From the IMG/VR virus record IMGVR_UViG_3300028895_000122: 64,000 bases of DNA, one strand, 5' to 3'. Positions 1-21,488 of the stretch are shown one piece after another. The translations under genes were made by a program, and so were the position numbers. Position 1 is the first letter of the stretch. Every line of letters starts with the position of its first letter. This DNA comes from a virus. The notes under the pieces were generated by a model. The model had not been told where the DNA came from. It worked only from the letters and a program-made list of their open reading frames with translations, and did no database searches.

Positions 1-173
1 AAGCTAACATCATATTCATCGCCTGTTGCTAGGTTAGGATCAGTTGCTGCTGCCGGAAATTTATGAATACCTTCTCTTTGGAAAGTAACCCATATCATTT
101 TACTGGCACCGTTTCTACGATGTTGTATTATATCAAACTGTGCTTGTGCTCTTGCGTTGTCTATATCACTCAT
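1..173 (-). CDS. hypothetical protein (partial, C-terminus beyond window)
   Basis: ATG at 173-171 overlaps stop of upstream gene (ATGA). Frame stays open to window edge (MSDIDNARAQAQFDIIQHRRNGASKMIWVTFQREGIHKFP...). Not in ORF track because it is incomplete. Confidence 0.35.
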   Translation of the reverse strand, partial: MSDIDNARAQAQFDIIQHRRNGASKMIWVTFQREGIHKFPAAATDPNLATGDEYDVS

Positions 174-685
174 ACTTCTATATCGCCTGTATATTCACTC
201 CAGTGTGTGAAGGTACTACGATCCATTAAATCTCTTACGCTATGAACCCATACACCTGGATTAGTTTGTTTTTCGGGATCGTCATCTATTTTAAGAACAG
301 CATTGTAACCAAGTTGGTCAATGTATTCCATTCTAACAGCGATCATTGGTATAAAGTTATTATACTCTACCAATGACGATTCGAGCAAGTCTGTCATGTG
401 TTGAACGGGAATATCTAATGTACAAACATATCCTTGATCAAGAAAATGCCTAATAGGTTTATCCCATTCCATCCATTGATCATAAAGTTCTAAACTTTCT
501 GTTAATCTAAAACTCTGATTTGCTGCGAAGTATAAGTGTTCTATAGTTGGCATATTAGCATTAGCTAGTACGTCTTCGATTTCTGCTTGGTTAGGAACCC
601 CAACAATAAACAATGTTTCTTTACCATGCATTGGTGTGTTTTCTACTTCGATACCTGTAAAGTATTTTACATTCATTCTATCCAT
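170..685 (-). CDS. hypothetical protein (172 aa)
   Basis: ORF-track ORF 170..739. The ATG at 685 has a GAGGT Shine-Dalgarno 5 nt upstream and abuts the stop of the TGT-like gene. The 739 start would overlap it. Confidence 0.5.
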   Translation of the reverse strand: MDRMNVKYFTGIEVENTPMHGKETLFIVGVPNQAEIEDVLANANMPTIEHLYFAANQSFRLTESLELYDQWMEWDKPIRHFLDQGYVCTLDIPVQHMTDLLESSLVEYNNFIPMIAVRMEYIDQLGYNAVLKIDDDPEKQTNPGVWVHSVRDLMDRSTFTHWSEYTGDIEV

Positions 686-686
686 T

Positions 687-2204
687 TTATACCTCAAATA
701 ATGATTCAAACGTTTGGTCTGAAACAACAGTGTGTTCACGTGGAGCAGGTTTCTCGACTACTAATGTAGGAATATCAAATTGGTCTGCCATAGTCTGAGC
801 ATTAACAGCTTTCTTACCACCCATACCACGTGCTCCAGCAATTCGCATAAACGTGTCGTGATAGAAATCTAGTATTGCTAATCTATCTTCATAATCTGGT
901 GCAGCAAATACAGCGTCAATGATATCGGTTATTGTAGTTCCATCGTTGGCAATAAGCATTGATGGATAGCAACCATTGTCATATGCTCTATTTGCTTGCT
1001 GTACAGCATTAATATGATGCCATACATTGTGACCCATCATTAATGCATAACTAAATGAATCCCAGCTTGTTTTACCTTCCTTGCCAATCTTATTTAGGTC
1101 ACCAGGTGCATATACACAAATATCATTGATTGCTAATTTCTCACTGATAGGACTATCATCAAACCGAGGATGGATACCATCACGTATAACAACGTCACGG
1201 AAGCTATCTGTGACATGAGCATAGGCTTTATTATCAGCAGTTGGATCCATGTTAAACTTCCATTTCTTGTGGAAGTCAGTTTCGGTGTGTGTATATAGTT
1301 GTCCGTTAGCAGTTGCTAGAAATGGACTTGCGCTGTCGAAGGATATAGTAAAATTGGGATTGTGGTGTCGACGTACTGCTCTTTGGACAGAGGTAAGCAA
1401 TGCTCCCCATTCAAGTTTACTTGTTCCTAAAAAGTGCATCCAGTCGTGTTTTCCTGTTTCGAGGAGACCGTCATGTATAATAGTGACAATACGCTTAAGA
1501 GCAAGATGGGGATCAGCCATATTAGCACCCCCCATTGCCCATCCTCGGAAGTAGTTTTTGTGTTTTGTTGGGTCATTATATTCCTTCATTATCTCGTACC
1601 ACTCATCGGCATCTGCATGATTAGATCCTTGTAGTACGTTTAAGAATTTAGCATCATTGAAACTATTTTCCATAAAGTATTCATGATTTGCTTTTGTAAC
1701 GTCGATAGCATCTTGTACAGTGTGAATATTTGTTTTAGCAACACTCTCTGGGTTATGTACAATCCATGTTGGTATATCAAGTGTCATACTATAATCACTT
1801 ACTTGACATAACCATTTAAGCACTGTAGAACGATACTTCTGTGCTTTCTTATCCATGTTCTTCCAATCTGCTTCCCACACACCTTTAGCAATCTGGAATC
1901 CACCTGAGTCTGCTAATAGTGTAGTATGATTGTCACGATTGCGAATCATGTACTCACCAGGTACATCTTTAGTAAGATCTAAGTTGGCATGACCTGCAGA
2001 ATATAATCCCCATTTGTATTGGAATAACCCTTCTTTGTCATTGAAGAAATTAAGCATCTCCATTTCTGGAATACCATTTGGCATTCGTGTATGCGGAACA
2101 TATTCTTCTGCTTGCTGCTTTCCTATATACGTTGCGTAAAAGGAACTAATAGCAGGCAAGTATATTGCATAATCTTTTTGTTCTGTTGTTAAGTCTGTGT
2201 TCAT
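687..2204 (-). CDS. tRNA-guanine transglycosylase (TGT/DpdA) family protein with C-terminal clamp-binding-like tail
   Basis: Ordered TGT-fold motifs: LADSGGFQ (catalytic Asp loop), SMTLDIPT (~AFDECTP), FLNVLQGS (~LFGIVQGG), GWAMGGAN (~GFAIGGLSVGE), HFLGTSK (~YLMGVGKP), ISFDSASPFLATANGQ (~GVDMFDCVLPTRSGRNGQ, nucleophile Asp). No CxCxxC zinc site seen. The protein ends TFESLFEV. Confidence 0.7.
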   Translation of the reverse strand: MNTDLTTEQKDYAIYLPAISSFYATYIGKQQAEEYVPHTRMPNGIPEMEMLNFFNDKEGLFQYKWGLYSAGHANLDLTKDVPGEYMIRNRDNHTTLLADSGGFQIAKGVWEADWKNMDKKAQKYRSTVLKWLCQVSDYSMTLDIPTWIVHNPESVAKTNIHTVQDAIDVTKANHEYFMENSFNDAKFLNVLQGSNHADADEWYEIMKEYNDPTKHKNYFRGWAMGGANMADPHLALKRIVTIIHDGLLETGKHDWMHFLGTSKLEWGALLTSVQRAVRRHHNPNFTISFDSASPFLATANGQLYTHTETDFHKKWKFNMDPTADNKAYAHVTDSFRDVVIRDGIHPRFDDSPISEKLAINDICVYAPGDLNKIGKEGKTSWDSFSYALMMGHNVWHHINAVQQANRAYDNGCYPSMLIANDGTTITDIIDAVFAAPDYEDRLAILDFYHDTFMRIAGARGMGGKKAVNAQTMADQFDIPTLVVEKPAPREHTVVSDQTFESLFEV

Positions 2205-3080: not shown

Positions 3081-3342
3081 CGTAACTCCATTTGAGTTTT
3101 GCTAGTGTAGCATCTTTCTCGCTTTCTAAGTGTATAATTGATGTCCAGGCACCGGGCATAATATAATAACTACCTTCACAATGTTCTGCACACCAGTCTT
3201 CTATTTCTTCTGTTGTATGAGAATGAAAATCAAAACGTACTTTATATGGCCATTGTGATTTAACTCTGGTGGCTAATAGTCGTCTTAGATTTTCACCACC
3301 ATCCTTTTCTTTTAACATTGCAAAGGTGAGTTCTTTTATCAT
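3067..3342 (-). CDS. hypothetical protein
   Basis: Packed-array ORF. Contains a HCEGSYYIMPGAW segment. No motif recognised. Confidence 0.4.
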   Translation of the reverse strand: MIKELTFAMLKEKDGGENLRRLLATRVKSQWPYKVRFDFHSHTTEEIEDWCAEHCEGSYYIMPGAWTSIIHLESEKDATLAKLKWSYDDKT

Positions 3343-4070
3343 TTACTCTGCGCTGGTAAGATATATGTGTAAGTTGCAATACCACTATCAACAGTAATTT
3401 CACATGCACCCTGATCACTAAATCTAACAGTTTTGTCACCTGTTAAATCCATAATCTTAATAAAGTGTGCAACTGGCCATAACCATTCTTGTTTTAAGTT
3501 GCCGGTGATATCAGTCTGGAATACAAACTCACCTGCGTGTGTAGAATGATCACCAAAATAGAATTTTAAGTTACCATCTTCTGTTTTTGATTTAAAAGTG
3601 ACTTCTTCACTATTTGCTGTGGCCTGCATTTTCATACGCTGAATACCTGCAATAGTTGGTTCGAACTCCACATTCCAGCTTGCACCTTTGAATTTAACTG
3701 CTTTAAGTTTTTCGTCGATGATTTCTTTAACCATAAAACGATAATCGTTTTTAAAGTCACCTGCATCGTTTTCGAAGTGCATGCCTACTGGCATTTCTTC
3801 ACCATTGCGGTCTTGACGTTTAATTGTAATGTTTGCATCTTCGCGATATGGCTCTAAGCCAAGTAAGATTTTAAGTTTGCCCAAGTTAGGCATACCAAAT
3901 GTGCCGATAAATTCTGCAATTGGATTAGCAAACTCTGCACTAATTACAACAGAACGATCTTCTGCAAGACCGTCGACTATTGTTTCTTTATCTGAACCTG
4001 TGATTTTGATTAGGTCGATAACTCCTAAATCATAAGTGTGCTCTACTAAGTCTAGTAAGTAATCACGCAT
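3339..4070 (-). CDS. hypothetical acidic protein; possible sliding-clamp (gp45-like) candidate
   Basis: 243 aa, acidic, first gene behind a perfect early promoter and next to the polymerase genes. Only weak resemblance to gp45 (LGKLKILLGL vs LNGFLGILSL; MKMQ). The call rests mainly on size and context. Confidence 0.25.
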   Translation of the reverse strand: MRDYLLDLVEHTYDLGVIDLIKITGSDKETIVDGLAEDRSVVISAEFANPIAEFIGTFGMPNLGKLKILLGLEPYREDANITIKRQDRNGEEMPVGMHFENDAGDFKNDYRFMVKEIIDEKLKAVKFKGASWNVEFEPTIAGIQRMKMQATANSEEVTFKSKTEDGNLKFYFGDHSTHAGEFVFQTDITGNLKQEWLWPVAHFIKIMDLTGDKTVRFSDQGACEITVDSGIATYTYILPAQSK

Positions 4071-4129: not shown

Positions 4130-5101
4130 TTAGATTACTTTGGATGGATCCGTAATAACCTGTGCTAATTCTTGACCACCACGCACTGATGTTAATTCGC
4201 CTGGTACCTTAACTTCAAACCAAGCAACATTGTCGTCTGGATAATTAACTTGATTAAGTAATTCAAAATCAAGTTTTTCTAATAATACCTTTAATAATCT
4301 ACCAGGTGTATATGTGTTCATCATATTTTCTGCATTGCGTACACCAGCAGTATAATCGCAATCATTATATGTAAACACAATAATTCCACCAGGCTTTAGA
4401 TATCTTTTTAGTTCTATTAGATAATCTTCGATAGCTTCAAGTGGCATATAGTTGAAATAATCATAAAGAACAATTAGACCAAGTTGATTCTCTGGCACAT
4501 TATGTACCTTATGATCACGTGTTTCTTCTATATTAAGATATCTAATTCTTTTCTGAAACTCAGGAGTCCATAGTTGTTTAACTTCATCAAACAATGACAT
4601 ATGAGTATCACCAATATACAACGGAGTACATGTTATCAATGGATCAACAAATTCTCCAGATTCTGGTCTAATAAATAATGCTGATCGTTTCCAATCAGCA
4701 TGAGTCTCGAGCCGGCCTATAAAGTGTTCTTTAACCTTGTCTCGTTTAATACATGGAAAGTTTTGATATCGTTCTTTAACATACTCGTGAGTATCATGCT
4801 CTTTAGCAGTATCGTACCACTCGTAACTTTGTTGAATTAATGGTTTTTCGAGTTCGTAAATAATGTCAGACATATCACTTTTATATTGTTCTAACATTTT
4901 ATCAAACTCATTGAGGTGTTGAGTTATTTTGGCTCCCATACCAACCATATCTGTTTGGTCACAAGCTAACCCAATATCTTGTGCTGATACATCACCTAAA
5001 ATTTTAGATAATTCAGTATTAACATATTGTGTTAACTCATTGACGTGCCATTGCTCAACTGCTGTACGATAACTTACTAAATCACTTAATTTCATTTTCA
5101 A
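4130..5101 (-). CDS. hypothetical protein, possible degenerate class-I methyltransferase-like fold
   Basis: ATGA overlap with the polymerase C-fragment. A C-terminal LKPGGIIVFTYNDCD resembles a post-motif MTase segment. No GxGxG motif I was found. Confidence 0.35.
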   Translation of the reverse strand: MKMKLSDLVSYRTAVEQWHVNELTQYVNTELSKILGDVSAQDIGLACDQTDMVGMGAKITQHLNEFDKMLEQYKSDMSDIIYELEKPLIQQSYEWYDTAKEHDTHEYVKERYQNFPCIKRDKVKEHFIGRLETHADWKRSALFIRPESGEFVDPLITCTPLYIGDTHMSLFDEVKQLWTPEFQKRIRYLNIEETRDHKVHNVPENQLGLIVLYDYFNYMPLEAIEDYLIELKRYLKPGGIIVFTYNDCDYTAGVRNAENMMNTYTPGRLLKVLLEKLDFELLNQVNYPDDNVAWFEVKVPGELTSVRGGQELAQVITDPSKVI

Positions 5102-6084
5102 AACTCGAATAAACTTTCAAATGTATTGCTAGTATCAGTTGCTGCTGCCAAATCCCATTCTAGTACACCTAATAGATTGTCAACCTTCTGATCAATGATT
5201 GTACTTTCCATTAAGTTATCATCAAACGGCAACTCTTTATACCACTCGGGTAAGTGTGCTTCATCTGTTGGATAACCGATGCTAGTCCATCCTAACGGAT
5301 TTTGTTTTAATTTACATACAATGGTTTTCATACCATCTACAATTTGCATGGTATAATTATCATTATTCATTTTGCGTAAAGTATTCCAATTTAATGCTGC
5401 TCGTACATGCCCGGGCATGTTAGCTTTACCTTGCGCTTTCTCCATATTACCGTATTTGGTTAAGTTGTTAACACGTTTTGGTGTTCCTTTTTCCCAACTA
5501 GGCTTTTCGTGGAATTCATTCTTAAATTCTTTAATTTCTTCGATTAATTCTTCTCTAGTTGAACCTGTTAGTAGACTATTTAGAATATTGCTCAAAAAGT
5601 CTTGTACTACCTTTGGCGTGTCGGAGCGTTTAAGGTCTAAGCCCATTGCTTTTACTTTGCCTGGCTTACCATCTACATCTTTGCGTTCGCCTTCGTCATC
5701 AACCACCATAATAGCATATCGCTTTTTCGTAATAAAAAGTCCACTACTGCCAACCACTTCTCGTCCACACGCAATAATTTCACCGTACGATTGTGGACAA
5801 TGAAATGCCCTCTTAGCAAACGCAGGAAAGGAGTCATTGACTTGTTGCCCAAGCTCGTCGTATAACGCGATCGCAACATCAGTGTTCCATTCTTGATCTC
5901 CTCTCTCAACTGCCTCCTTGACAACCGGCCAAGCAGAGAAATAAGCCGAGTCAGTGTTATGTACAAGCGATCCGTTTGCAAAAAAGAACGGATCCTGGTC
6001 AGCCATTGACACATCATAAACATACTCCTCTGTTGTATCTAACTTTTCTACGGATTTAACTCGTTGTCTTTTTAATTCAATCAT
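5098..6084 (-). CDS. 43: DNA polymerase (family B, gp43) C-terminal fragment carrying a C-intein
   Basis: It begins MIELKRQRVKSVEKLDTTEEYVYDVSMADQDPFFFANGSLVHN (intein blocks F/G ending HN), then TDSAYF, which completes YGD|TDS motif C. A 285-aa C-extein follows. The protein ends NTFESLFEF, a clamp-binding-like tail. Confidence 0.85.
   Translation of the reverse strand: MIELKRQRVKSVEKLDTTEEYVYDVSMADQDPFFFANGSLVHNTDSAYFSAWPVVKEAVERGDQEWNTDVAIALYDELGQQVNDSFPAFAKRAFHCPQSYGEIIACGREVVGSSGLFITKKRYAIMVVDDEGERKDVDGKPGKVKAMGLDLKRSDTPKVVQDFLSNILNSLLTGSTREELIEEIKEFKNEFHEKPSWEKGTPKRVNNLTKYGNMEKAQGKANMPGHVRAALNWNTLRKMNNDNYTMQIVDGMKTIVCKLKQNPLGWTSIGYPTDEAHLPEWYKELPFDDNLMESTIIDQKVDNLLGVLEWDLAAATDTSNTFESLFEF
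5956..6084 (-). other. split-intein C-fragment (43 aa) at the N-terminus of the polymerase C-fragment
   Basis: VYDVSM...NGSLVHN immediately precedes the +1 Thr of TDS. Confidence 0.7.
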
Positions 6085-6293
6085 TTTGAAAACCTTAATC
6101 TAAACCATATAGCATCTTCTTCTTTTTCGAACCACCATCTGGTATTGGTATAGTGGTTATAGAATCTGCCATCTGAGTCATGTTCTCTACACCACTTACC
6201 TGCTTCGTTGATCATGTCCCTTGGTGGTGGTGGAGATGTATACCATTCTGATCGTCTGGTATTTTTTAATTCTGCTGTATTATCCCACTTCAT
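6081..6293 (-). CDS. hypothetical small protein (between polymerase halves)
   Basis: Packed ORF. No motif recognised. Confidence 0.3.
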   Translation of the reverse strand: MKWDNTAELKNTRRSEWYTSPPPPRDMINEAGKWCREHDSDGRFYNHYTNTRWWFEKEEDAIWFRLRFSK

Positions 6294-6294
6294 C

Positions 6295-6516
6295 TTAATT
6301 CACACATACAACATTAATTGGTAGTTCTTCGTCTGTTGCATATTCTTCTGGAAAGAACTCATCGTCTTCAGACCAATGTCCTATTGTCGGTGCAAAATAA
6401 ATTGGATTATAACCATTGCCTTCGTCATCGATAGAAGCACATACTTCTAATTCTGCATAATCTGGGTTATTGTCTATAATTTTTTGTAGACCTTCTATAT
6501 ATTCTTTAAGTTTCAT
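6295..6516 (-). CDS. hypothetical small protein (between polymerase halves)
   Basis: Packed ORF, acidic. No motif recognised. Confidence 0.3.
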   Translation of the reverse strand: MKLKEYIEGLQKIIDNNPDYAELEVCASIDDEGNGYNPIYFAPTIGHWSEDDEFFPEEYATDEELPINVVCVN

Positions 6517-6748
6517 TATCGTTTACCTGTAATAGTTTAACGGTATGCTCGCATATCTGTAATTCTTTTATCAGATGATCATGTCTTGCAACCATCTTTT
6601 CGTAATTTTGATACATTTGATGTGACCATGAGATAAATTCATTTATTTTGTCGTCACCTCCGCGAGCTAGTTCGGCTGCAAGTTCTGTTGGAAATAATCT
6701 TAGATCTGCGGCATAATGATATTGTGGTAACCAAGATTTAGTTCCCAT
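6506..6748 (-). CDS. hypothetical small protein (between polymerase halves)
   Basis: Packed ORF. No motif recognised. Confidence 0.3.
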   Translation of the reverse strand: MGTKSWLPQYHYAADLRLFPTELAAELARGGDDKINEFISWSHQMYQNYEKMVARHDHLIKELQICEHTVKLLQVNDNET

Positions 6749-7004
6749 CGTTTACGCTCAAATCTTGAATTGCTCTAGATAATATTTCTGACAAGTCGTG
6801 GAATCTAGGATCATCACCTTTGTCTAAAGTCGTACAGCATTCCGCGATTGCCCACCCTAATGCTTGAATTCTTTCTTGTTCTATATAATTTACTAATTTA
6901 TAGTATGCTGTTGTGGTTGGGTAAATACCATGCTCATCAGGGTGATCAAGCATTTCGCTAACGATATCACATACTACTTGTCTGTCTTTATCCATTCTAT
7001 ACAC
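6738..7004 (-). CDS. hypothetical small protein (between polymerase halves)
   Basis: Packed ORF. No motif recognised. Confidence 0.3.
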   Translation of the reverse strand: MYRMDKDRQVVCDIVSEMLDHPDEHGIYPTTTAYYKLVNYIEQERIQALGWAIAECCTTLDKGDDPRFHDLSEILSRAIQDLSVNDGN

Positions 7005-7951
7005 CTTTCTATAGTTTCTTTTATGTTATTCTTAAATTCTGATTCCCATATCACTAAAGTAGGAATACTTCTTTCTTTGAATAACGCATCAATTTTTTCT
7101 TTATCTTTTTTCCAAATATCTTCGGCAAGTAAATCTGCCTGACTATGATAATAGTTTACACTATATTTCTCTGGATTGCAATGCCAATAATCACCATTAA
7201 ACTCTATTGCTCGTCCTTTATGTACAATATCGTAGAAATTTGGTTTATTGTTAGCATACACACAATATTGTTTGGTATTGGCAGAATATTCTAAAGTTTC
7301 TCCTAAATTTAATTCTATTTGTTTAATAAACTCTAATTCTAAATCACTTACATAACCGCCAGTATTGTATTCACTTCGTATTTGCACGGCTTCTTCTACT
7401 GAACAATTATGTCTATTTTGGATTGAATCTATTGTATGTGATTTACCCTTGCATATTTCTATATATTTTTGGTTACCTTCTTCTACACCATATTTTTCAA
7501 TAAAGTATTCTTTAGTGTTAGTATATGCTTGTCTATCACAATAGGCAATCCATCTTTGCGATCCTTCTTCCTCTCCGTATTTAGATATTAAATTCTCTAA
7601 CGTAACAGCACGAGAACGGTTAAATTCCTTAAATTCTTCTTCGCTCCAACCATATCGTTCTTTTTTATATTCGTACGAGTTCGACTTGCGTTGTTTTTCG
7701 ACATAGTTTTGCCATGCTTTTTCACCTTCTACTTTTCCGTATTTCTCGACGAGATTATCTCGTGTTATCGCTGTTTTCTTTGCTAATTCCGCATCAACTA
7801 ACTGAGCATTTGGATATGCTTGTTTATATTCTGTTCCATTCTTAAACTTTCCTGTACACTTGTAAGCAAAGTGAGTCCATTGTAATCTTGGTGCTGTAAA
7901 ACCACATTCTAAACATTTTGGCATTATGGTGCTTCTCCTATCCGCATACAA
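6974..7951 (-). CDS. putative homing/selfish endonuclease: Zn-finger N-terminus, three EKYG.EEG repeats, C-terminal Vsr/DUF559-like PD-(D/E)XK domain
   Basis: An N-terminal CLECG...KC cysteine cluster. Repeats LVEKYGKVEGEKAW, LISKYGEEEGSQRW and FIEKYGVEEGNQKY. The C-terminal GRAIEFNGDYWH...PTLVIWESEF is similar to the Vsr/DUF559 ...RFWEHE end. It lies inside the split-polymerase locus. Confidence 0.5.
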   Translation of the reverse strand: MYADRRSTIMPKCLECGFTAPRLQWTHFAYKCTGKFKNGTEYKQAYPNAQLVDAELAKKTAITRDNLVEKYGKVEGEKAWQNYVEKQRKSNSYEYKKERYGWSEEEFKEFNRSRAVTLENLISKYGEEEGSQRWIAYCDRQAYTNTKEYFIEKYGVEEGNQKYIEICKGKSHTIDSIQNRHNCSVEEAVQIRSEYNTGGYVSDLELEFIKQIELNLGETLEYSANTKQYCVYANNKPNFYDIVHKGRAIEFNGDYWHCNPEKYSVNYYHSQADLLAEDIWKKDKEKIDALFKERSIPTLVIWESEFKNNIKETIERCIEWIKTDK

Positions 7952-7986: not shown

Positions 7987-8135
7987 ATGCGAATTAAAGA
8001 AGTCACAAAAAAGGTTGTTAAAGATGACGCAGACTATAACAATGATGTTATGTCTGGCCATCAAAAGCCTATTCCCGAACTTACACCTGCTCAAGTCAAA
8101 AAAGCAAAAGCCCTCAAAAAGATTAAGAATCTATA
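7987..8135 (+). CDS. possible small Lys-rich ORF (49 aa), opposite strand
   Basis: ATG..TAG open frame MRIKEVTKKVVKDDADYNNDVMSGHQKPIPELTPAQVKKAKALKKIKNL in the gap between the HEG-like gene and the polymerase N-fragment. It overlaps the polymerase stop and has no clear SD. Confidence 0.15.
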
Positions 8136-10315
8136 GAGATAATTAAGTCATCATCCTGCAATTCTGTAGGTTTAACTTCTATTGTAAATCCGTCTCTATC
8201 AACTATTAAACTATGATCCTCTGTAACGGTTATAGAACTACCATCTTCCATTGTGACCTTGTATAGTTGTTTGGATGTTTTATGACGCATCACATAGTTG
8301 ATCGCTCCAAATACAGCCTCATCTTCATGAGCATTATAACCAAGCACCTTTAGATCATGTTGTGCTTCTGTGGGTATGGCATATTCTTTACCGCCATCTT
8401 GCTCTACCTTGTATTGAATCTGATTGTATAAATCTTCTATGGATATGTTGCCTTTGTTGGTGTTTAATGTAGTATCGCCTGTAACTGAGTCGCCGTATAT
8501 GATGCATTCACCAACATGATCATATTCTCCTGTTAAACATTGATTAACATAAGCGTCCATGTGTTTAGCAATTGCTCGCCCTGTTAACGTTGTGCTTTGT
8601 CCTATCCTAGGGTCAAAAAATCTACAATGTGGGTTTAGGATAGCACCATATAAAGAGTTAAGGTTAATCTTTTTAACGAGTTGTCGTTTATCCCAGAAAG
8701 CAATTTCTTCTTTATCGCTTGCTGTTTTTTTCTTTGCTTGTAATTCTTTACGTTCGGCATACCAACGTTCTAGTAACCCTGGAACAACACCTTTCTTTTC
8801 GTATGTAAAGATGGTACCATTTGCACTTATACACCAATTGGTATTCTCGTTAAATATATGGTCATGTAACTCTTTTGCAGTATGTACGCTTTCTTCGCCG
8901 TTAACCCAATCGACAGTAATTTCTGTATCTGTTCTGCGATCCATAACTGCTGTATATTCCAATGTACCAAACAATCCTTCCCAGGCTGCTGCAAACGAAG
9001 CACCTACATATTTCTTACCATTTCTAAACGTCGGCTCTTGTTTCTTTTTAATGTAGTTGTTGGTCATTATAGGACGTAGTTGTCCTACAATAGTTTCATT
9101 AGCCATGTTCAATGCACGAATAACAGATGGATACAGTGAGTTCAAGTCAACCGACCCAATCCATTTATGTACACCTTTTTTAGGGTATGCTACATAAGCA
9201 CCTGCTGCTTGTGTATCTTCTTTGTCGTGGCGTTTACGATCTGGTACTACCATTCCGCGTTCATGTGCTTCGTTGATGATGGCTTGCTCTGTTACCGCCA
9301 CCGCGCCCATTGTTGTAGGAAGCAATACAGTATTAGCATGAGCTAGTTCGTTTGCTAAATCAAGGAACTTGAGTTTCTCATCCAGTTTAGCAAGTAACGC
9401 AACGTCCTGCCTGTTATAGTCAATAAACGTGTAAAAGTCTTGGTTGTATAGTTGGTCAAGTGTGCCTTCATATTCTACCTTACGCTCGCCAAGTTCATAT
9501 TCACCAATTGCATCTAAGCTATAAGAATGCATTTCGTGATATGTATATTTTCTGTACAGTTGCATATAATCCATATGAACCCTACCAACTGTATCATATG
9601 TAATATGTTCTGCACCAAACCGTTCAAATGTACGTTTCTTAGGTAACATACCCCACAAACATAATCTACGAGTGTCGTCTTTACTTAATACTCGTGTAAT
9701 ACGATTTACTGTGTATGGTATATCAAAGCCTTCGCTGTTCCAGCCGCTATACACGTCGGCGTCTTCGATTATATCCAAAAAGGTTAATAACATATCACGT
9801 TCGTGTTCGAAGATAAATGTATTAGGAAACTCTTTACACATTTCTTGTGCTTCTTCGACTGATAATGTTTTTGGCGGCACCGCCAATGTAATAAGACTTT
9901 CCATCCAATCTAAATATACTGTGATAGCAGTAATCTTATTAAACGGATCGTCTGTTGGTGCAAAACCTTTTTCTTGGTGGAAGTCCACCTCGATATCAAA
10001 AAACGCTGTTTGTAGTTTGGGTGAGTCAACATCTTTATAGTTTGTTTCTATACACCTAAAGATAGGATTAATATCAGATTCAAACAATTGTTGACCTGAA
10101 TGCATTTTAATTTCTTTTTGGAACTCTTTGCCAGTTCTACATGAAAACTTCGATACTGGTGTTCCATAAAGACTTATGTATTTCCCTTTTGCTGATGGGT
10201 AATAAAATACATAGTCGGCAGGATATTCTTTGAATAATCTCTGCCCATCTTTTGATCTTTCTACAATTTTAATACGATCATGTTCACGATCGTGTATAGC
10301 GTCAACATAACTCAT
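8123..10315 (-). CDS. 43: DNA polymerase (family B, gp43) N-terminal fragment carrying an N-intein
   Basis: FFDIEV (Exo I), DLNSLYPS (motif A) and KINLNSLYG (motif B) are present. The extein ends ECIIYGD. A 121-aa SVTGDTTL...VTEDHSLIV... tail follows, then stop. Confidence 0.85.
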   Translation of the reverse strand: MSYVDAIHDREHDRIKIVERSKDGQRLFKEYPADYVFYYPSAKGKYISLYGTPVSKFSCRTGKEFQKEIKMHSGQQLFESDINPIFRCIETNYKDVDSPKLQTAFFDIEVDFHQEKGFAPTDDPFNKITAITVYLDWMESLITLAVPPKTLSVEEAQEMCKEFPNTFIFEHERDMLLTFLDIIEDADVYSGWNSEGFDIPYTVNRITRVLSKDDTRRLCLWGMLPKKRTFERFGAEHITYDTVGRVHMDYMQLYRKYTYHEMHSYSLDAIGEYELGERKVEYEGTLDQLYNQDFYTFIDYNRQDVALLAKLDEKLKFLDLANELAHANTVLLPTTMGAVAVTEQAIINEAHERGMVVPDRKRHDKEDTQAAGAYVAYPKKGVHKWIGSVDLNSLYPSVIRALNMANETIVGQLRPIMTNNYIKKKQEPTFRNGKKYVGASFAAAWEGLFGTLEYTAVMDRRTDTEITVDWVNGEESVHTAKELHDHIFNENTNWCISANGTIFTYEKKGVVPGLLERWYAERKELQAKKKTASDKEEIAFWDKRQLVKKINLNSLYGAILNPHCRFFDPRIGQSTTLTGRAIAKHMDAYVNQCLTGEYDHVGECIIYGDSVTGDTTLNTNKGNISIEDLYNQIQYKVEQDGGKEYAIPTEAQHDLKVLGYNAHEDEAVFGAINYVMRHKTSKQLYKVTMEDGSSITVTEDHSLIVDRDGFTIEVKPTELQDDDLIISIDS
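8126..8488 (-). other. split-intein N-fragment (121 aa) at the C-terminus of the polymerase N-fragment
   Basis: Block A SVTGDTTL follows YGD directly. Block B is TxxH (SSITVTEDHSLIV). Confidence 0.7.
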
Positions 10316-10628: not shown

Positions 10629-10892
10629 TTATTTTAGAGGTGTTTGCTCGATTTGGTCTAATCGATTTAAGATATTTTGGATAGTTTCGTCTTGACTATC
10701 TAACTGATGTTGCATAGAAGTAATATCTTGTTCGTCGTCTGATTGTTCATCGTGGTGTAAGTTAGCTAATGCTTCTACATCAGTATCAGCGTGAGCATAC
10801 TTAGCACGAGCCTTTTTGATTGTTCTCGCTGCGTCAGGATTTCGGATAGTTAAGTTGCCTTCGTCTTCGTTTAGGAATTCAAACGATTTCAT
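10629..10892 (-). CDS. hypothetical small protein, paralog family B
   Basis: RTIKKARAKYAHADTDVEAL matches RKGRAKYAYAKSDLEAF of the adjacent gene. Confidence 0.4.
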   Translation of the reverse strand: MKSFEFLNEDEGNLTIRNPDAARTIKKARAKYAHADTDVEALANLHHDEQSDDEQDITSMQHQLDSQDETIQNILNRLDQIEQTPLK

Positions 10893-11179
10893 TTTAGTTT
10901 ATCTACCTTGCGTTGTAATGCTTTAACATCAGCAGTTAAATCCTGAATACGTTTCTTATAGTGATCACTTGAACGTTCTAAGTTATTAATGCGTGTTGCT
11001 TGTTTGTATAGTTCTTTTTCTGTGCCTTTGTAGTCGTCATCGACCATTTTAACAAAGGCTTCCAAATCAGATTTGGCATAAGCATACTTAGCACGGCCTT
11101 TGCGTAATGCAGCCGTAGTCTTAGGATCCATTATGTTAATGGTTGTTTCGTATGCTTCACCTAGGTCAAACAGTTTCAT
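10889..11179 (-). CDS. hypothetical small protein, paralog family B
   Basis: Tandem paralog of 10629..10892. Confidence 0.4.
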   Translation of the reverse strand: MKLFDLGEAYETTINIMDPKTTAALRKGRAKYAYAKSDLEAFVKMVDDDYKGTEKELYKQATRINNLERSSDHYKKRIQDLTADVKALQRKVDKLK

Positions 11180-16717: not shown

Positions 16718-17431
16718 TTATATTTCCTCATTAATTATGTTGTATGTTTTCTTTAAAAGTCCGGGCGCACATATATTAAAAATAGTTTCTATGCCAGGAT
16801 CATTATAGTCAAAGAAAAAATGTTCTTGACAGTATTTACTTGGAAAATTTAACCAACGTTTAAAAGTTCGACATGGTACAACTGTATCGTGATAAATCTT
16901 TAAAAATTGTTTTAGTTTTTGTTTGTGATCGTTTGTTACAATACACGTTTTTAAATAAGTTCTATACTTGTAATCAGAATTTTTTCTAACCAATGAACCC
17001 GAATCGGAATTAATCTTTATTTCTGTTATGCCGGGATCTACTATACCAGGCAATGTTAATAATTCTTCTAAAAACGGTATATTATTCGAATAACAATAAA
17101 AACGGTGTGTTGTAAGAACCAACCGATATTTAAGATCCTGTTCATTGAAGAAGTTAATAAATGAATTTAAGTTTTCTTTTGTGATATCGGTAATCGGTTC
17201 TCTATGCATTGAGCCAACCATACCAAGTGAACGCGGTACATAAAACCCCGAACGTTTATATCTTTCTTTAATTCGTAAGCGTTCATCTAATCCGACACTG
17301 GTTAATCCTCGTACAGAATTAACTTCTTGAAGATACCCACATGCAGACCATTGATACTCATTAAAGAATAGTTTATTGCTTTTCTTTATACTATAATTTA
17401 GGTTTGAATTGGTCCAAGACAATGTATCCAT
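16718..17431 (-). CDS. hypothetical protein
   Basis: Packed ORF. No motif recognised. Confidence 0.4.
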   Translation of the reverse strand: MDTLSWTNSNLNYSIKKSNKLFFNEYQWSACGYLQEVNSVRGLTSVGLDERLRIKERYKRSGFYVPRSLGMVGSMHREPITDITKENLNSFINFFNEQDLKYRLVLTTHRFYCYSNNIPFLEELLTLPGIVDPGITEIKINSDSGSLVRKNSDYKYRTYLKTCIVTNDHKQKLKQFLKIYHDTVVPCRTFKRWLNFPSKYCQEHFFFDYNDPGIETIFNICAPGLLKKTYNIINEEI

Positions 17432-19688
17432 CGTCGCTTATTGTGCCCTCGGGCATTTTCTCCGTTGTTAATTTATTATTCTGTTCGAAGATTATTTCTT
17501 CACCATCTAAAAGAACTGTTAATGTTGTGTCTTTAAGATTTTCAAATAATATCTTTTTACTTAGCGGTACTTTAAGTAATTCATTGATTTTTCTTGATAT
17601 AGGTCTAGCACCCATTTTGCTATCATAACCAACATCTGCAAGAAAATCAATTACAGCTTCAGTAACATTAATTTTAATATTTTTATTTTTAAGTTGTTCT
17701 TTAAGATCTATAATAAACTTATTAACAACCTTCTTAATACTTAGCTCATCTAATTTGTTGAACTTAACAATCGCATCTAATCTATTACGCAATTCAGGTT
17801 TGAAGAACTCTTTAACAGCTTTATCTTCTTCTCCAGACTTTTCTAAGTCTTGCCCAAAGCCGATGTTAAAGTTTTCGTTATCTCTTGCACCTAAGTTACT
17901 TGTTAATAAAATAATGCAGTTCTTTATATTTACTGTTTTTCCTGAAGAACTTGTAATATGTCCTTCGTCGAGCATCTGTAACATAATGTTAGACACATCT
18001 GGATGAGCCTTTTCAATTTCATCAAACAATAAGATACTATATGGATCTTTAGTAATGTCTTGAATAAGTTTACCACCACCTAAATTACCATCTTCGTATC
18101 CTACATATCCAGGCGGTGCACCAATTAACTGTGACACACTATGTCGTTCTTGATATTCTGACATGTCATAACGTAACAGTTCCATGTCTAGGTTCTTGCT
18201 TAACAATTTAGCAAACTCAGTTTTACCGCAGCCTGTAGGTCCAAGTAATAAGAAGCTAGCAACTGGTTTATTTTCTGTAGTTAATCCACCGAAGCTAACA
18301 TAGATACGATCAAGCATTTCATCTACTGCGTCATCTTGACCGTAAAGTTTCTCTTTGATGTTGGCTCCTAAGTCGCGCACCTTATTACAATCTTCATTTT
18401 TAAGACGTTCAACAGGAACAGTAGTAATCTTCTCTGCTTCTCTGAAAATAAGGTCTGGTGTAATCTCAACATCCTTATTATCTTTAGCACGTTGTTTAGC
18501 ACATGCCGCATCTAATAGATCGATTGATTTATCTGGATTCTGTCTATCGTGGATATAACGTGTTGCTAAGTCCACCGCAGTAATACAGGCCTCTTTATCG
18601 ATTCGAACGCTGTGGAATTCTTCGAGTCGACTAGAAAGTCCGTTTAGGATTTTGATAGTTGTATCATGATCTGGCTCGTCGATATTGAGTTTATAGAATC
18701 GACGCATTAATGCACGATCCTGTTCAAATGTTTCGTAAAACTCTTCCCAGGTAGTTGAAGCAATTACTTTAAGTTTGCCGCGTGTAATAGCAGGCTTTAA
18801 CATGTTGGCCATATCTAAGTTGCCATTGCTACCAGCACCAGCACCTGACATAGTGTGTGCTTCGTCGATGAACAAGATACCGTTATTAAGTGTTTCCAAT
18901 GCTTTAATAACTTCTTGGAACTTTTCTTCAAACTCACCACGATACTTCGAACCAGCTAATAAAGATCCAACTTCCAATGACCATACTGTATGTCCTTTAA
19001 GAAACTCAGGAACATCACCTTCGGCTATTTCCTGTGCAAGGCCTTCTACGATTGCTGTTTTACCAACGCCAGGGTCACCTACCATTAGTACATTTGATTT
19101 AAACTTCTTAGCAAGAATTTCAACCGCGTCTTGAATTTCGTTTGCACGACCAATCAATGGTTCGAACTTACCTTCTTCTGCTAATTCGGTTAAGTTAGTA
19201 CAGTGCTCATACAGAATGTCTTCCGCTTGGTCGTTGTTTAATGTTACTTTAGCGCCTTCTTTGTAACTCTTGTTCCAGTGCTCAACAAATGAATCTTTAT
19301 CGACACCGTGTTTCAATAAGAAGTAAGATGCATGACTATTTGTTTCTGCAGAAATACTTAGGTAAAGATCAATGGTTGTAATTTGTTTACGTCCAGAGAA
19401 AAGAACTTGTGTTCCTGCTCTATTGAATATGCGTTCTAATGCATTTGTACGTTTTGGTGTGTCTTTGTATTGTGGGTTAACAATATTTTTAAGATTGACT
19501 AAATATCCTTCGAGTTCTGAATCAAATAAATCAGTATCAACTCCGTAGTTCTTTAATACTTCATCAAATGGTTCGAATCGAATAAGTGCTAACAGTAAAT
19601 GTTCTGTTAATACATATTCATGTTTCTTCTGTTTTGCAATGTGAATTGCATATTCTGTAATTTGTTCAATCTCTGGATTTACTTGCAT
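17391..19688 (-). CDS. ClpA/ClpC-like two-AAA+ domain unfoldase (765 aa)
   Basis: A Clp_N-like [10 protein letters not shown] segment. AAA1 Walker [23 protein letters not shown]2 [16 protein letters not shown]. The length matches ClpA (no ClpB middle domain). Confidence 0.8.
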
Positions 19689-20043
19689 TGGCTTTTTTCT
19701 TCCTAGTAGTTTTTTTCTTAGTAGGTTTAAGACTTTTTATAGCCTCTTCTAAAAATGGTGATAATTCTGTACGTTTAATATTACCTAAATAATCTGTAAA
19801 CTTAACAAAATCTTTAATATTATCCTCATCTTTGTATTCTATAACAGGATTAAAATAATAATGTGGTTTTTCTTTTGTTACTAATAAATTAACTTGTTCA
19901 CCAACATCTGGACCAATTATATAGTCTTTGTCTGTAGTGTTTAATGTTATTAACATTTCTAAACCAAGTTTCTGATTTTTAAAAGGTGCTGTAAAATCAA
20001 CATCCTTCATTCCTGTCTTTTTCGCTTTTACTAATTTTAACAT
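19666..20043 (-). CDS. hypothetical protein with basic C-terminal tail
   Basis: Packed ORF. No motif recognised. Confidence 0.4.
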   Translation of the reverse strand: MLKLVKAKKTGMKDVDFTAPFKNQKLGLEMLITLNTTDKDYIIGPDVGEQVNLLVTKEKPHYYFNPVIEYKDEDNIKDFVKFTDYLGNIKRTELSPFLEEAIKSLKPTKKKTTRKKKANASKSRD

Positions 20044-20051
20044 AAAAATAT

Positions 20052-20831
20052 TTATTCTTGCAAGTCTTTTATTGATTTAATTAACTCGGTTGGAATATTT
20101 TTCGGTAATCGAGCAAGTAACTTAACATACATATCTCCCTGTCTGTTATGTTTTCCTTTTAACCCTTTGCCTTTGACCCTCATTAAGGTATTAGGTTGAC
20201 TTTTTGCTGGTACAGTTAGTACAATTTTTTGTCCTAAAATAGTTTCAACTTCTAATTTCTTTCCTAGTATGAAATCCCAAAAGTCTAAGGTATATTCCTT
20301 AGTTAAATCTAATCCATGTCTTAACCATTCCTTATCATCTTGTATATTGAATATTATGTGTACTTCAGAATTAGGAATTAAATTTGGGTAGCTAATAACA
20401 TCTCCGTCGTTTATACCTAACGGAATTTCAATTTCTGCTGATCTTACCTGGCCAGAGGCATCTTGAATTGTAACTATCTTTTTGCCGCCGGTAGCAATAG
20501 TTTCTAATTCGACAATTAGTCTAACCCTGACGATATTCGTTCTACGATGTTGTCTTTGCGAGTGATTAAAGAAGTCGTTGAATACACTATTAAAGTCTTG
20601 ACCTTGTCTAAAGTTAAATTCCCTAAAATGTTCTCCGTTTCCAAATTGGTCATGTTGCTTACGTTTAGATTCATCACCTACTATAGCATACGCATCACCA
20701 ATTTCTTTAAATTTAGTTTCATCACCGCCGCGGTCAGGATGATGCTGCATCGCTAGTTTGCGATATGCTTTTTTAATTTCATCTTGGGTGGCTGTTTTTT
20801 TAACACCTAATACTTCATACGGATCACGCAT
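20052..20831 (-). CDS. DnaJ-like J-domain protein (no Zn-finger)
   Basis: N-terminal [36 protein letters not shown] is a J domain with HPD. Confidence 0.7.
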
Positions 20832-20835
20832 AATA

Positions 20836-21093
20836 TTAATTATTCCATAAGTATATGAGGCCAGGAATTATTATAAAAAATTGAGGAAGAAAGTTAGTTA
20901 TAATAGCTTTTTCATTCCACTTATATCCTACATAAACCCAACCGCTCGCGCCAATTAGTTGTAAGTAACTGTTCCACGGAGTCATGCCTAATACATGGAA
21001 TACCATTGCTATTAGAATTATTATAGCACTAGCCCATTTAACAATGAATACAGGATCAGTGTAGGTTTTTGTTTTTGTTTCTGTCGTTGGCAC
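20836..21093 (-). CDS. small membrane protein
   Basis: Hydrophobic helices, two or three predicted. Confidence 0.3.
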
Positions 21094-21442: not shown

Positions 21443-21454
21443 TATAATACTTAT

Positions 21455-21488
21455 TAAAAAAGATAGGTGCCCTGTATTATCAAGGCAC
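21455..21488 (-). terminator. putative rho-independent terminator after the TctC-like gene
   Basis: Minus strand reads GTGCC-12 nt loop-GGCAC followed by CTATCTTTTTT. Confidence 0.35.

What the first reader, a model, noticed from the sequence alone, without database searches (positions are those of the whole stretch)
687..728. The TGT-like enzyme and the DNA polymerase end with the same clamp-binding-like peptide (TFESLFEV / TFESLFEF)
- The last residues of the TGT-like protein are ...SDQTFESLFEV. The polymerase C-fragment (5098..5139) ends ...TSNTFESLFEF.
- T-even polymerases bind the gp45 sliding clamp through a C-terminal SLDFL/SLFDMFDF-type peptide.
- Eight of nine residues are shared by these two otherwise unrelated proteins, and no other protein in the window has this tail.
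- This suggests the guanine-transglycosylase homologue is tethered to the replication clamp and modifies DNA co-replicationally.
- No such coupling has been described for DpdA-type enzymes, to my knowledge.
Basis: inference. Interest (0 to 1): 0.85.

Follow-up and report, generated by a model that had tools for sequence, protein, structure and literature searches.

The report
Clamp-binding tail on a phage DNA transglycosylase
A jumbo-phage enzyme of the guanine-transglycosylase fold, which probably swaps guanine in DNA for a modified base, ends in the same short peptide as the phage's DNA polymerase, most likely a handle for the phage's own sliding clamp, so DNA modification would be physically coupled to replication.

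Summary
ORF 687..2204(-) ends ...QTFESLFEV and the polymerase C-fragment 5098..6084(-) ends ...NTFESLFEF. That is 7 of 8 residues identical, not 8 of 9. The two tails differ at five synonymous sites, including Ser TCA versus AGT, so this is not a copied piece of DNA.

- No other ORF in the window has the tail, and chance expectation is about 6e-4.
- The 505-aa protein models as a TGT-fold enzyme with a disordered tail (residues 462-505).
- ORF 3339..4070(-), lying between the two genes, models as a PCNA-like sliding clamp.
- The gene order pol, clamp, TGT-like recurs in at least 80 viral contigs and in Pseudomonas phage PA5oct and Vibrio phage 2.275.O; Sinorhizobium phage Phosso keeps clamp–TGT-like adjacency.
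- Polymerases there end in TFxxLF[DE][FW]. The TGT-like proteins carry [QM]FNxLF[DE] at or near the C-terminus.
- Across 80 loci and the whole PA5oct genome, essentially only these two families have such a tail.
- Relatives sit beside FolE, QueE, QueF and QueC genes, which supports a DpdA-type role.

Clamp tethering is therefore well supported but inferred, because no binding test was possible. I found no publication describing it. The nearest precedents are T4 ligase and T4 alpha-glucosyltransferase binding gp45.

The parts
687..2204 (-). TGT-superfamily (DpdA-like) transglycosylase, 505 aa. The folded core is residues 1-461.
   Evidence: AF2 pLDDT 87.9. The top 8 Foldseek PDB hits are all tRNA-guanine transglycosylases, prob 1.0, E 7e-6. 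TIGR00449 hits at E 1e-3, below cutoff. The DSGGFQ motif has invariant D99. More than 7991 homologues exist.
690..713 (-). C-terminal peptide TFESLFEV, the putative sliding-clamp-interaction motif of the transglycosylase.
   Evidence: It is identical in 7 of 8 residues to the polymerase tail and lies in the disordered region. The motif class is conserved across the family.
714..821 (-). Disordered linker, residues 462-497. It contains the degenerate remnant (774..791, MADQFD) of the family's usual proximal [QM]FNxLF[DE] motif.
   Evidence: pLDDT is below 50 for residues 462-505. In the alignment, the window has lost the first F and the L of the proximal motif that most homologues keep.
3339..4070 (-). 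PCNA/gp45-like sliding clamp, 243 aa, the proposed binding partner.
   Evidence: AF2 pLDDT 89.3. Foldseek PDB gives 460 hits at E<=1e-3, the top ones all PCNA, prob 1.0, TM about 0.66. A homologue is present in 80 of 80 related loci, usually immediately upstream of the TGT-like gene.
5098..6084 (-). DNA polymerase B C-terminal fragment: intein-C (5956..6084) followed by the palm/thumb extein.
   Evidence: Pfam DNA_pol_B and Intein_splicing. phrog_262/1918 DNA polymerase. The closest solved structures are RB69 and T4 gp43, with the thumb region aligned.
5101..5124 (-). Polymerase C-terminal peptide TFESLFEF, the putative clamp-binding tail.
   Evidence: It sits at the extreme C-terminus, as the gp45-binding tail does in T4 gp43 (EKASLDFLFG) (PMC6212786). 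All related polymerases end in TFxxLF[DE][FW].
8123..10315 (-). DNA polymerase B N-terminal fragment: exonuclease and palm domains, followed by intein-N (8126..8488).
   Evidence: Pfam DNA_pol_B_exo1, DNA_pol_B and Intein_splicing. The junction is IIYGD|S...HN|TDS, which restores motif C.
30452..31366 (-). RFC/gp44-like AAA+ clamp-loader subunit.
   Evidence: Pfam AAA, DNA_pol3_delta2, Rad17 and AAA_lid_RFC1.
170..685 (-). Conserved 171-aa protein of unknown function. It starts 1 nt after the transglycosylase stop codon and is probably in the same operon.
   Evidence: A homologue is present in 74 of 80 loci. No Pfam, PHROG or PDB match was found, even with a profile.

Best explanation
The last eight residues of the TGT-like protein (TFESLFEV) are a short linear motif that docks into the peptide-binding pocket of the phage's own PCNA-like sliding clamp (ORF 3339..4070). 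This is the same pocket used by the polymerase tail (TFESLFEF).

The enzyme is a distant TGT-superfamily, DpdA-type base-exchange enzyme. Its folded core (residues 1-461) is joined to the motif by a flexible linker of about 36 residues. A trimeric clamp has three pockets, so the transglycosylase can ride on the same ring as the polymerase. It could also use rings left behind on the lagging strand. Either way it would slide along freshly made duplex and replace guanines, probably with a 7-deazaguanine derivative, immediately behind the fork, before host nucleases see unmodified DNA.

Shown:
- motif identity at the peptide level but not the DNA level
- a disordered tail on a TGT fold
- a clamp gene and a clamp-loader gene in the window
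- family-wide retention and positional turnover of the motif
- exclusivity of the motif to these two protein families
- linkage of relatives to 7-deazaguanine genes

Inferred:
- that the polymerase tail binds the clamp, by positional homology with T4/RB69 gp43
- that the transglycosylase tail binds the same site
- that the substrate is DNA
- the identity of the inserted base
For: 1. The peptide is identical in 7 of 8 residues, with 5 synonymous DNA differences including a TCA/AGT serine switch. Chance expectation is about 6e-4.
2. The tail (residues 462-505) is disordered on a confident TGT-fold core.
3. ORF 3339..4070 is PCNA-like, and an RFC-like loader lies at 30452..31366.
4. In 80 IMG/VR loci the order pol, clamp, TGT-like is conserved. 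Polymerases end in TFxxLF[DE][FW], and TGT-like proteins carry [QM]FNxLF[DE].
5. The motif moves. It can be proximal, proximal plus distal, or distal only after a non-conserved linker, but it is retained. This is typical behaviour for a short linear motif.
6. Deep lineages keep the pairing:
   - PA5oct: pol ...HFDSLFGW, TGT-like ...SFNSLFDV...
   - Vibrio phage 2.275.O: pol ...NNTDLFDW, TGT-like ...NNNDLFGW
   - L095: pol ...AMKLFNY, TGT-like ...AKSLFEF
   - L097: pol ...STFFEF, TGT-like ...LSLFEF
7. Exclusivity. [FY]..LF[DE] in the last 12 aa occurs only in pol (57) and TGT-like (14) among 3693 ORFs. In the whole PA5oct genome only these two large proteins have it in a C-terminal tail.
8. The one motif-less distant homologue with usable genomic context, in a 46-kb contig, has neither a clamp nor a pol gene within the 21 kb fetched.
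9. DpdA-type role. QueE lies 3 kb downstream in PA5oct, and FolE and QueD are elsewhere in that genome. QueF, QueC-like, Gat, FolE and a YhhQ-like transporter are adjacent in Vibrio phage 2.275.O. FolE is present in 39 and QueE in 18 of the 80 loci. PA5oct DNA resists G-site restriction enzymes (PMC12191111).
10. Precedent for the logic. Similarity of a T4 ligase loop to the gp43 tail correctly predicted gp45 binding, with Kd 10.7 uM and a crystal structure (PMC6212786).
Against: - No physical or structural test of binding was possible. Structure-prediction jobs were exhausted and no multimer tool exists here.
- The within-genome covariation test was negative. Identity at the six variable positions was 1.55 against 1.52 for permuted pairings, p=0.38. 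Each family keeps its own flavour, TFx[ST]LF[DE]F versus [QM]FNxLF[DE]V. That is compatible with a shared pocket but also with different partners.
- The window itself shows no 7-deazaguanine biosynthesis genes. However, the gene lies 686 nt from the window edge, so a downstream cluster would be out of view.
- All sequence models for TGT score below their curated cutoffs, and no PADLOC DpdA model hits. Activity and substrate are therefore unproven.
- In T4, the alpha-glucosyltransferase-gp45 interaction turned out not to be the main determinant of modification levels (PMC13216743). Tethering may therefore have a modest effect.
Confidence: 0.7

Rival explanations
1. The shared tail binds a common partner other than the phage clamp. 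Candidates are the host beta clamp, the phage single-stranded-DNA-binding protein, a helicase or primase hub, or a chaperone. Polymerase and transglycosylase would then be co-recruited, but not through the PCNA-like ring.
For: The motif is a generic hydrophobic LF core, and bacterial beta-clamp motifs (QL[SD]LF, from established knowledge) are loosely similar to QFNxLF. Many homologues carry a second, acidic C-terminal motif (LDxxKLDxLE...) that must bind something else. In Phosso the gene sits next to primase and DnaB. The window encodes ClpB, DnaJ and Cpn10.
Against: The polymerase tail is at the position, and of the type, that binds gp45 in T4 and RB69. The phage encodes its own clamp and loader. 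The clamp gene is the most constant neighbour of the TGT-like gene, present in 80 of 80 loci and usually directly upstream. The spacing differs from the beta-clamp pentapeptide.
Confidence: 0.12
2. The transglycosylase tail has a function of its own that is unrelated to the polymerase tail. It could be an autoinhibitory or oligomerisation element, a degron for the phage- or host-encoded Clp machinery, or a membrane or protein anchor. The resemblance to the polymerase tail would then be convergence on a hydrophobic ending.
For: The family's own consensus ([QM]FNxLF[DE]V) differs systematically from the polymerase consensus, and no covariation was detected. C-terminal hydrophobic peptides are common degrons (established knowledge). 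A ClpB-like gene is in the window.
Against: Five of the six shared consensus positions (F, L, F, acidic, hydrophobic) coincide. In several independent lineages the two tails are nearly identical while differing between lineages: window TFESLFE, Vibrio phage 2.275.O N.DLF.W, L097 FEF. The motif occurs on no other protein. The one motif-less homologue with usable context lies outside any replication module.
Confidence: 0.08
3. The match is a coincidence, or a recent illegitimate recombination that copied the end of the polymerase gene onto the transglycosylase gene without functional meaning.
For: The exact 7-residue identity is special to this window. Close relatives at 76-81% identity have different tail architectures.
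Against: Chance expectation is about 6e-4, and 0 of 2000 resamplings reached 7. The five DNA differences are all synonymous and include a TCA/AGT serine. The motif class is conserved in thousands of homologues down to about 33% identity.
Confidence: 0.02

Closest known systems
C-terminal gp45-binding tail of T4/RB69 DNA polymerase gp43, and the same motif in T4 DNA ligase, gp33 and gp55
   Same: A short hydrophobic/aromatic peptide (T4 EKASLDFLFG; ligase EPEGLDFLFD) on a flexible segment docks on the trimeric clamp. One motif is shared by several otherwise unrelated client proteins of one phage. The window polymerase is a gp43-type enzyme with its tail at the same position.
   Different: The motif variant is FxxLF[DE][FVW], not LDFLF. 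The clamp is closer in fold to PCNA and has no detectable sequence similarity to gp45. The second client here is a base-exchange enzyme, which is not a known clamp client.
T4 alpha-glucosyltransferase binding to the gp45 clamp (Sommer et al. 2004; re-tested in PMC13216743)
   Same: A phage DNA-hypermodification enzyme physically associated with the replication clamp, proposed to modify DNA concomitantly with replication.
   Different: The chemistry differs: glucosylation of hmC already in DNA, versus excision and replacement of guanine. No shared polymerase-like tail has been defined for alpha-GT. In T4 the interaction was found not to be the main determinant of modification levels.
DpdA-type DNA guanine transglycosylases (bDpdA, phage DpdA1-DpdA4; PMC6884629, PMC10516641)
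   Same: [quoted passage not shown] Phage DNA is resistant at G-containing restriction sites in PA5oct. BFVD fold neighbours include proteins annotated as phage TGT or queuine tRNA-ribosyltransferase, and an uncharacterized Vibrio phage nt-1 protein.
   Different: There is no BLAST-level similarity to Campylobacter or Cellulophaga (DpdA3) phages and no PADLOC DpdA hit. The core is larger, about 460 aa. The gene is embedded in the replication module next to the clamp. It carries a polymerase-like tail, which the DpdA literature searched does not mention.
Eukaryotic PIP-box clients that act on newly replicated DNA (DNMT1, UNG2, on PCNA)
   Same: The concept is the same: a DNA-modifying or base-excising enzyme is recruited to the fork by a short clamp-binding peptide on a disordered region (established knowledge, not tested here).
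   Different: Unrelated enzymes and a different motif consensus (Qxx[LIM]xx[FY][FY]), in a eukaryotic context.

Membership tests
Sliding-clamp client carrying a polymerase-type clamp-interaction peptide | A short hydrophobic/aromatic motif matching that of the cognate polymerase | tested here: met
   TFESLFEV versus TFESLFEF. The family consensus FxxLF[DE]phi is shared with the polymerases of the same genomes.
Sliding-clamp client carrying a polymerase-type clamp-interaction peptide | The motif lies in a flexible, disordered terminus or loop | tested here: met
   AF2 pLDDT is below 50 for residues 462-505, while the core is mostly above 90.
Sliding-clamp client carrying a polymerase-type clamp-interaction peptide | A cognate clamp and clamp loader are encoded by the same genome | tested here: met
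   ORF 3339..4070 has a PCNA fold. ORF 30452..31366 is RFC-like.
Sliding-clamp client carrying a polymerase-type clamp-interaction peptide | The motif is conserved while flanking sequence and position vary | tested here: met
   The motif is found at proximal, distal or both positions, down to about 33% core identity.
Sliding-clamp client carrying a polymerase-type clamp-interaction peptide | Co-variation of the client motif with the polymerase motif or clamp pocket | tested here: inconclusive
   The permutation test gave 1.55 versus 1.52 identities, p=0.38. Single lineages do show matched variants.
Sliding-clamp client carrying a polymerase-type clamp-interaction peptide | Physical binding of the peptide to the clamp pocket | not testable with these tools
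   No multimer prediction and no experiment was available.
TGT superfamily (PF01702 / TIGR00449) | TGT-type (beta/alpha)8 barrel fold | tested here: met
   The top 8 Foldseek PDB hits are bacterial, archaeal and eukaryotic TGTs, prob 1.0, E 7e-6 to 1e-3.
TGT superfamily (PF01702 / TIGR00449) | Sequence score above the curated family threshold | tested here: not met
   There is no Pfam hit for the window protein. PF01702 hits 6 of 35 homologues, best E 8.5e-5. TIGR00449 scores 18 bits against a cutoff of 47.6.
TGT superfamily (PF01702 / TIGR00449) | Catalytic aspartate in the DSGG(F/Y)Q motif | tested here: met
   LLADSGGFQIAKG is present, and D99, S100, G101, G102 and Q104 are invariant in 35 homologues. 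Equivalence to the Z. mobilis TGT catalytic Asp is by motif only.
TGT superfamily (PF01702 / TIGR00449) | Zinc site (CxCxxC...H) and second catalytic Asp | not tested
   No residue-level structural alignment was available. Invariant D143 and D290 exist, but their equivalence was not established.
DpdA-type DNA 7-deazaguanine transglycosylase | Co-location with 7-deazaguanine biosynthesis genes | tested here: inconclusive
   None are found in the 64-kb window, and the gene is 686 nt from the window edge. Relatives do show it: PA5oct QueE 3 kb away, a full cluster in Vibrio phage 2.275.O, and FolE in 39 and QueE in 18 of 80 loci.
DpdA-type DNA 7-deazaguanine transglycosylase | Assignable to a described subfamily (bDpdA, DpdA1-4) | tested here: not met
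   No PADLOC DpdA hit. tblastn at E<=10 finds no DpdA3-bearing phages. There are only fold-level neighbours among phage TGT-like proteins.
DpdA-type DNA 7-deazaguanine transglycosylase | Phage DNA contains a 7-deazaguanine, and the enzyme exchanges G in DNA | not testable with these tools
   Indirect evidence only. [quoted passage not shown]
T4 gp43-type family B DNA polymerase | Exo, palm and thumb domains homologous to RB69/T4 gp43, with a C-terminal tail beyond the thumb | tested here: met
   Pfam and PHROG hits. phmmer to RB69 gp43 gives E 1.7e-14, aligning residues 112-274 to 697-851 of 903, which leaves a tail of similar length.

The most novel reading that the evidence does not exclude
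A very large, so far unclassified clade of jumbo-phage DpdA-like transglycosylases (more than 7991 clusters at 90% identity; 878 clusters at 50%) are bona fide clients of the phage PCNA-like clamp.

The clamp would act as a tool-belt that couples DNA synthesis to processive base exchange. That would explain how a post-replicative base-swapping enzyme can reach genome-wide modification quickly enough to escape restriction.

The second, acidic C-terminal motif (LDxxKLDxLE...) found in most members would recruit a further replisome component. Other jumbo-phage TGT-domain enzymes reach DNA differently, through a Lys-rich basic tail.
Probability: 0.5. Interest if true: 0.8.

Novelty: new variant of a known kind. 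Interest (0 to 1): 0.68.

Why it matters
7-Deazaguanine DNA modification is currently described as a post-replicative base exchange by DpdA enzymes. It is not known how some phages reach very high replacement levels (PMC10516641).

A clamp-binding handle on the transglycosylase would give a concrete, testable mechanism: recruitment to nascent DNA and processivity by sliding. It would add a base-exchange enzyme to the list of sliding-clamp clients.

It would also assign a function to an abundant 'hypothetical protein' family of environmental jumbo phages, and of the therapeutic candidate PA5oct. In PA5oct, a modified guanine has been inferred and no transglycosylase is annotated in the genome record.

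Practically, the motif is a simple marker for finding replication-coupled modification enzymes in metagenomes. The clamp-tail pair could also be used to tether enzymes to DNA.

Tried and rejected
1. Near-identical DNA search of the window against phage records gave no match.
2. Direct Pfam, PHROG and PDB sequence searches of the TGT-like protein and the clamp gave nothing. Fold prediction was needed.
3. I looked for a third motif-bearing family. N-terminal MSFQALFDFE... on a 195-aa DegT-like protein in three loci was rejected: it is the conserved structured helix FExxLAxYTG, and the LF is not conserved among homologues. Internal hits in a roughly 300-aa family and in structural proteins were rejected as buried or structured.
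4. A covariation test between the transglycosylase and polymerase motifs was negative. A few motif picks in that script were mis-assigned to a core segment (DRLFFR), which adds noise but does not change the outcome.
5. The acidic second motif was searched for on other proteins to guess its partner. It was found only in the TGT-like family.
6. Identification of the co-transcribed 171-aa protein by profile searches against PDB and Pfam gave no hit.
7. I tried to connect the family to DpdA3 or DpdA2 by tblastn at E<=10. No Campylobacter, Cellulophaga or nt-1 hit appeared. Following the weak hit to Vibrio phage GR7B led to a different TGT-domain family with a basic tail.
8. Small window ORFs with LF[DE][FL]-like N-termini have no homologues in the fetched loci, so their conservation could not be judged.
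9. Context of motif-less distant homologues: three of four contigs were too short to be informative.
Full report
**1. The observation**

ORF 687..2204 on the minus strand (505 aa) ends ...PREHTVVSDQTFESLFEV. ORF 5098..6084 on the minus strand (328 aa) ends ...AAATDTSNTFESLFEF. The shared block is TFESLFE.

- A six-frame scan finds FESLF only in these two ORFs, plus one non-coding frame.
- None of the 119 likely genes of the window ends similarly.
- The longest k-mer shared by the last 12 residues of any two ORFs is this 7-mer. 0 of 2000 resamplings reached 7, and the analytic expectation is 6e-4.
- The 21 nucleotides encoding TFESLFE differ at five positions, all synonymous: ACG/ACA, TCA/AGT, TTT/TTC. 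Serine uses the two unconnected codon families. The identity is therefore a property of the peptide, not a recently copied stretch of DNA.

**2. What the two proteins and their neighbour are**

*The polymerase.* The 328-aa ORF is the C-terminal part of a family B polymerase of the T4/RB69 gp43 type.
- Pfam and PHROG hits support this.
- phmmer to RB69 gp43 gives E 1.7e-14, with the thumb aligned to residues 697-851 of 903.
- The polymerase is split by a split intein exactly within motif C: IIYGD|S...HN|TDS. The N-terminal part is 8123..10315.

*The TGT-like protein.* The 505-aa ORF has no Pfam, PHROG or PDB sequence hit.
- An AlphaFold2 model built on 35 homologues is confident (pLDDT 87.9) for residues 1-461 and disordered for 462-505.
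- Its eight best matches among solved structures are all tRNA-guanine transglycosylases, prob 1.0.
- Weak sub-threshold hits to PF01702 and TIGR00449 agree with this.
- The DSGGFQ motif is invariant.

*The clamp.* The 243-aa ORF 3339..4070 lies between the two genes. It models with pLDDT 89.3 and matches PCNA throughout (460 hits at E<=1e-3). An RFC-like clamp-loader subunit lies at 30452..31366. The phage therefore has its own clamp system, and the clamp gene sits 1.1 kb upstream of the transglycosylase gene.

**3. Related sequences**

The TGT-like family is very large. More than 7991 clusters at 90% identity were found, on contigs of up to 697 kb. At 50% identity there are 878 clusters.

In 80 IMG/VR loci the gene order pol, clamp, TGT-like, 171-aa ORF is conserved. 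The clamp is present in 80 of 80 loci and is usually directly upstream.

Tails in these loci:
- All polymerases end in NTFxxLF[DE][FW], plus 0-6 residues.
- The TGT-like proteins carry [QMY]F[NDG]xLF[DE] immediately after the core.
- That motif is either terminal, or followed by an acidic extension of about 25 residues ending LDxxKLDxLE..., or duplicated.
- In a minority, including the window, the proximal copy has decayed and a new copy sits at the extreme C-terminus behind a non-conserved linker.

Retention combined with positional turnover is what is expected of a short linear interaction motif.

The pairing persists in deep branches:

| Lineage | Polymerase tail | TGT-like tail |
|---|---|---|
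| PA5oct (38% identity) | ...HFDSLFGW | ...SFNSLFDV + acidic tail |
| Vibrio phage 2.275.O | ...NNTDLFDW | ...NNNDLFGW |
| Contig L095 | ...AMKLFNY | ...AKSLFEF |
| Contig L097 | ...STFFEF | ...LSLFEF |
| Phosso | not examined | ...VEGLF |

In Phosso the clamp gene is directly upstream of the TGT-like gene and primase plus DnaB follow it.

Among 113 full-length 50%-cluster representatives, an LF-type ending is common down to about 32% identity and absent from the most divergent ones. The one motif-less member with usable context lies among Topo I, DprA, TIR and OGG genes, without a clamp or polymerase.

**4. Specificity**

- In 3693 ORFs of the 80 loci, [FY]..LF[DE] within the last 12 residues occurs only in polymerase (57) and TGT-like proteins (14). 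Anywhere in a protein, 119 of 134 occurrences are in these two families.
- In the complete 286.8-kb PA5oct genome there are seven occurrences among 837 ORFs. Only the polymerase and the TGT-like protein have the motif in the C-terminal tail of a large protein. The single other C-terminal case is a 49-aa ORF.

**5. Is it a DNA (DpdA-type) enzyme?**

- In PA5oct, QueE lies 3 kb downstream, and FolE and QueD are present elsewhere.
- In Vibrio phage 2.275.O the gene is followed by QueF, a YhhQ-like transporter, a QueC-like gene, Gat and FolE.
- FolE homologues occur in 39 and QueE homologues in 18 of the 80 loci.
- PA5oct DNA resists several G-containing restriction sites, and its authors inferred a modified G without naming a transglycosylase (PMC12191111).
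- BFVD fold neighbours include proteins annotated as phage TGT or queuine tRNA-ribosyltransferase, and an uncharacterized Vibrio phage nt-1 protein.
- The family is not assignable to bDpdA or DpdA1-4 by the tests available.
- The window itself shows no Que genes. The gene lies 686 nt from the window edge, so a downstream cluster could not be seen.

**6. Mechanism**

The polymerase tail occupies the position of the gp45-binding tail of T4/RB69 gp43, and T4 gp43 ends EKASLDFLFG. In T4, similarity of a ligase loop to that tail correctly predicted clamp binding, which was confirmed by ITC and crystallography (PMC6212786).

By the same logic, the transglycosylase tail most likely docks into the clamp pocket. 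A trimeric ring could then carry polymerase and transglycosylase together, or rings left on the lagging strand could recruit the enzyme. Either way the enzyme would gain proximity to nascent DNA and processivity.

Points against:
- The covariation test was negative.
- The two families have distinct consensus flavours.
- In T4, the alpha-glucosyltransferase-gp45 interaction is real but not the main determinant of modification level (PMC13216743).

**7. Comparison with what is known, and novelty**

Clamp-binding peptides shared by several clients are well known: T4 gp43, ligase, gp33 and gp55, and the PIP boxes of eukaryotes. Clamp association of a phage DNA-modifying enzyme has one precedent, T4 alpha-glucosyltransferase.

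I found no report of a clamp-interaction motif on a DpdA or TGT enzyme. This protein family is annotated as hypothetical in the cultured phages examined.

I rate it a new variant of a known kind. The comparative evidence is strong and a culturable model (PA5oct) is available for testing.

**8. Verdict**

| Item | Assessment |
|---|---|
| Observation | Confirmed, with a corrected residue count |
| Confidence in clamp tethering | About 0.7 |
| Interest | 0.68 |

Noticed in passing
window 5956..6084 and 8126..8488 (intervening ORFs 6081..7924): The family B polymerase is encoded in two pieces by a split intein inserted exactly in motif C: IIYGD|SVTGDT ... GSLVHN|TDSAYF. Five ORFs lie between the halves, including a 316-aa phrog_22677 protein. 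PA5oct has a Hef-like homing endonuclease between its two halves, and contig L095 shows the same split.
   Followed up: partly
L001-L080 and P0002-P0120 (for example P0047, P0096); absent from window ORF 687..2204: Most homologues of the transglycosylase carry a second, acidic C-terminal motif (LDxxKLDxLE[DE]SV or EQ) after the LF motif. Among 3693 locus ORFs it occurs only in this family (41 cases). Its partner is unknown.
   Followed up: partly
window 170..685 (-): A 171-aa ORF starts 1 nt after the transglycosylase stop codon and is conserved in 74 of 80 related loci, and in PA5oct at 252640..253137. It has no Pfam, PHROG or PDB match, even with a 27-sequence profile. It may be an unknown partner of the modification system.
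   Followed up: partly
window 10889..11179, 10629..10892, 32146..32439, 42966..43295 (all -): Four small ORFs begin with LF-type peptides that resemble the clamp-motif core: MKLFDLGE, MKSFEFLNE (these two are paralogues), MRLFEFNED and MFNWLFGMF. No homologues were present in the fetched loci, so their conservation is unknown.
   Followed up: partly
PA5oct MK797984 26644..26793 (EST35_0082); L089 13726..14838 (Vibrio phage 2.275.O NVP2275O_469): A 49-aa PA5oct early-region ORF ends ...RRTFYWTLFG. The 370-aa protein encoded directly after the Vibrio phage transglycosylase starts MFNELFDFND. Both may be further clamp-motif carriers, or chance matches.
   Followed up: no
L099 2117..3733 (Vibrio phage vB_VcorM_GR7B GR7B_00174): A different jumbo-phage 'TGT domain' family is found in GR7B, Pseudomonas putida jumbo phages, Xanthomonas jumbo phages and Achromobacter phage Motura. 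It ends in a Lys-rich basic tail of about 45 residues instead of an LF motif, which suggests a different way of holding on to DNA.
   Followed up: partly
window 4130..5095 (-): A 321-aa ORF with a weak SAM-methyltransferase signature (Methyltransf_11, E 0.002) lies between the clamp gene and the polymerase C-fragment. Its start follows the polymerase stop codon by a few bases. It is present in 42 of 80 related loci.
   Followed up: no
window 17391..24162, 28621..29325, 32451..32876, 33877..34383: The phage carries ClpB-like, DnaJ, Cpn10 and PhoH genes, a TctA tricarboxylate-transporter membrane subunit with an adjacent periplasmic-type protein, and a 168-aa fragment-like DnaE (DNA_pol3_alpha) ORF. 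PA5oct and Phosso have counterparts of several of these.
   Followed up: partly
L092 10001..11389 (homologue P0350): A distant, motif-less homologue of the transglycosylase sits in a 46-kb contig next to OGG-like, TIR, DprA-WHD and topoisomerase I genes. This is not a phage replication module and may be a cellular or mobile-element version of the enzyme.
   Followed up: partly
L011 18637..19224, L028 16988..17572, L071 15699..16286: Truncated DegT/aminotransferase-like proteins of about 195 aa occur a few kb downstream of the transglycosylase in many related loci, but not in the window.
   Followed up: partly
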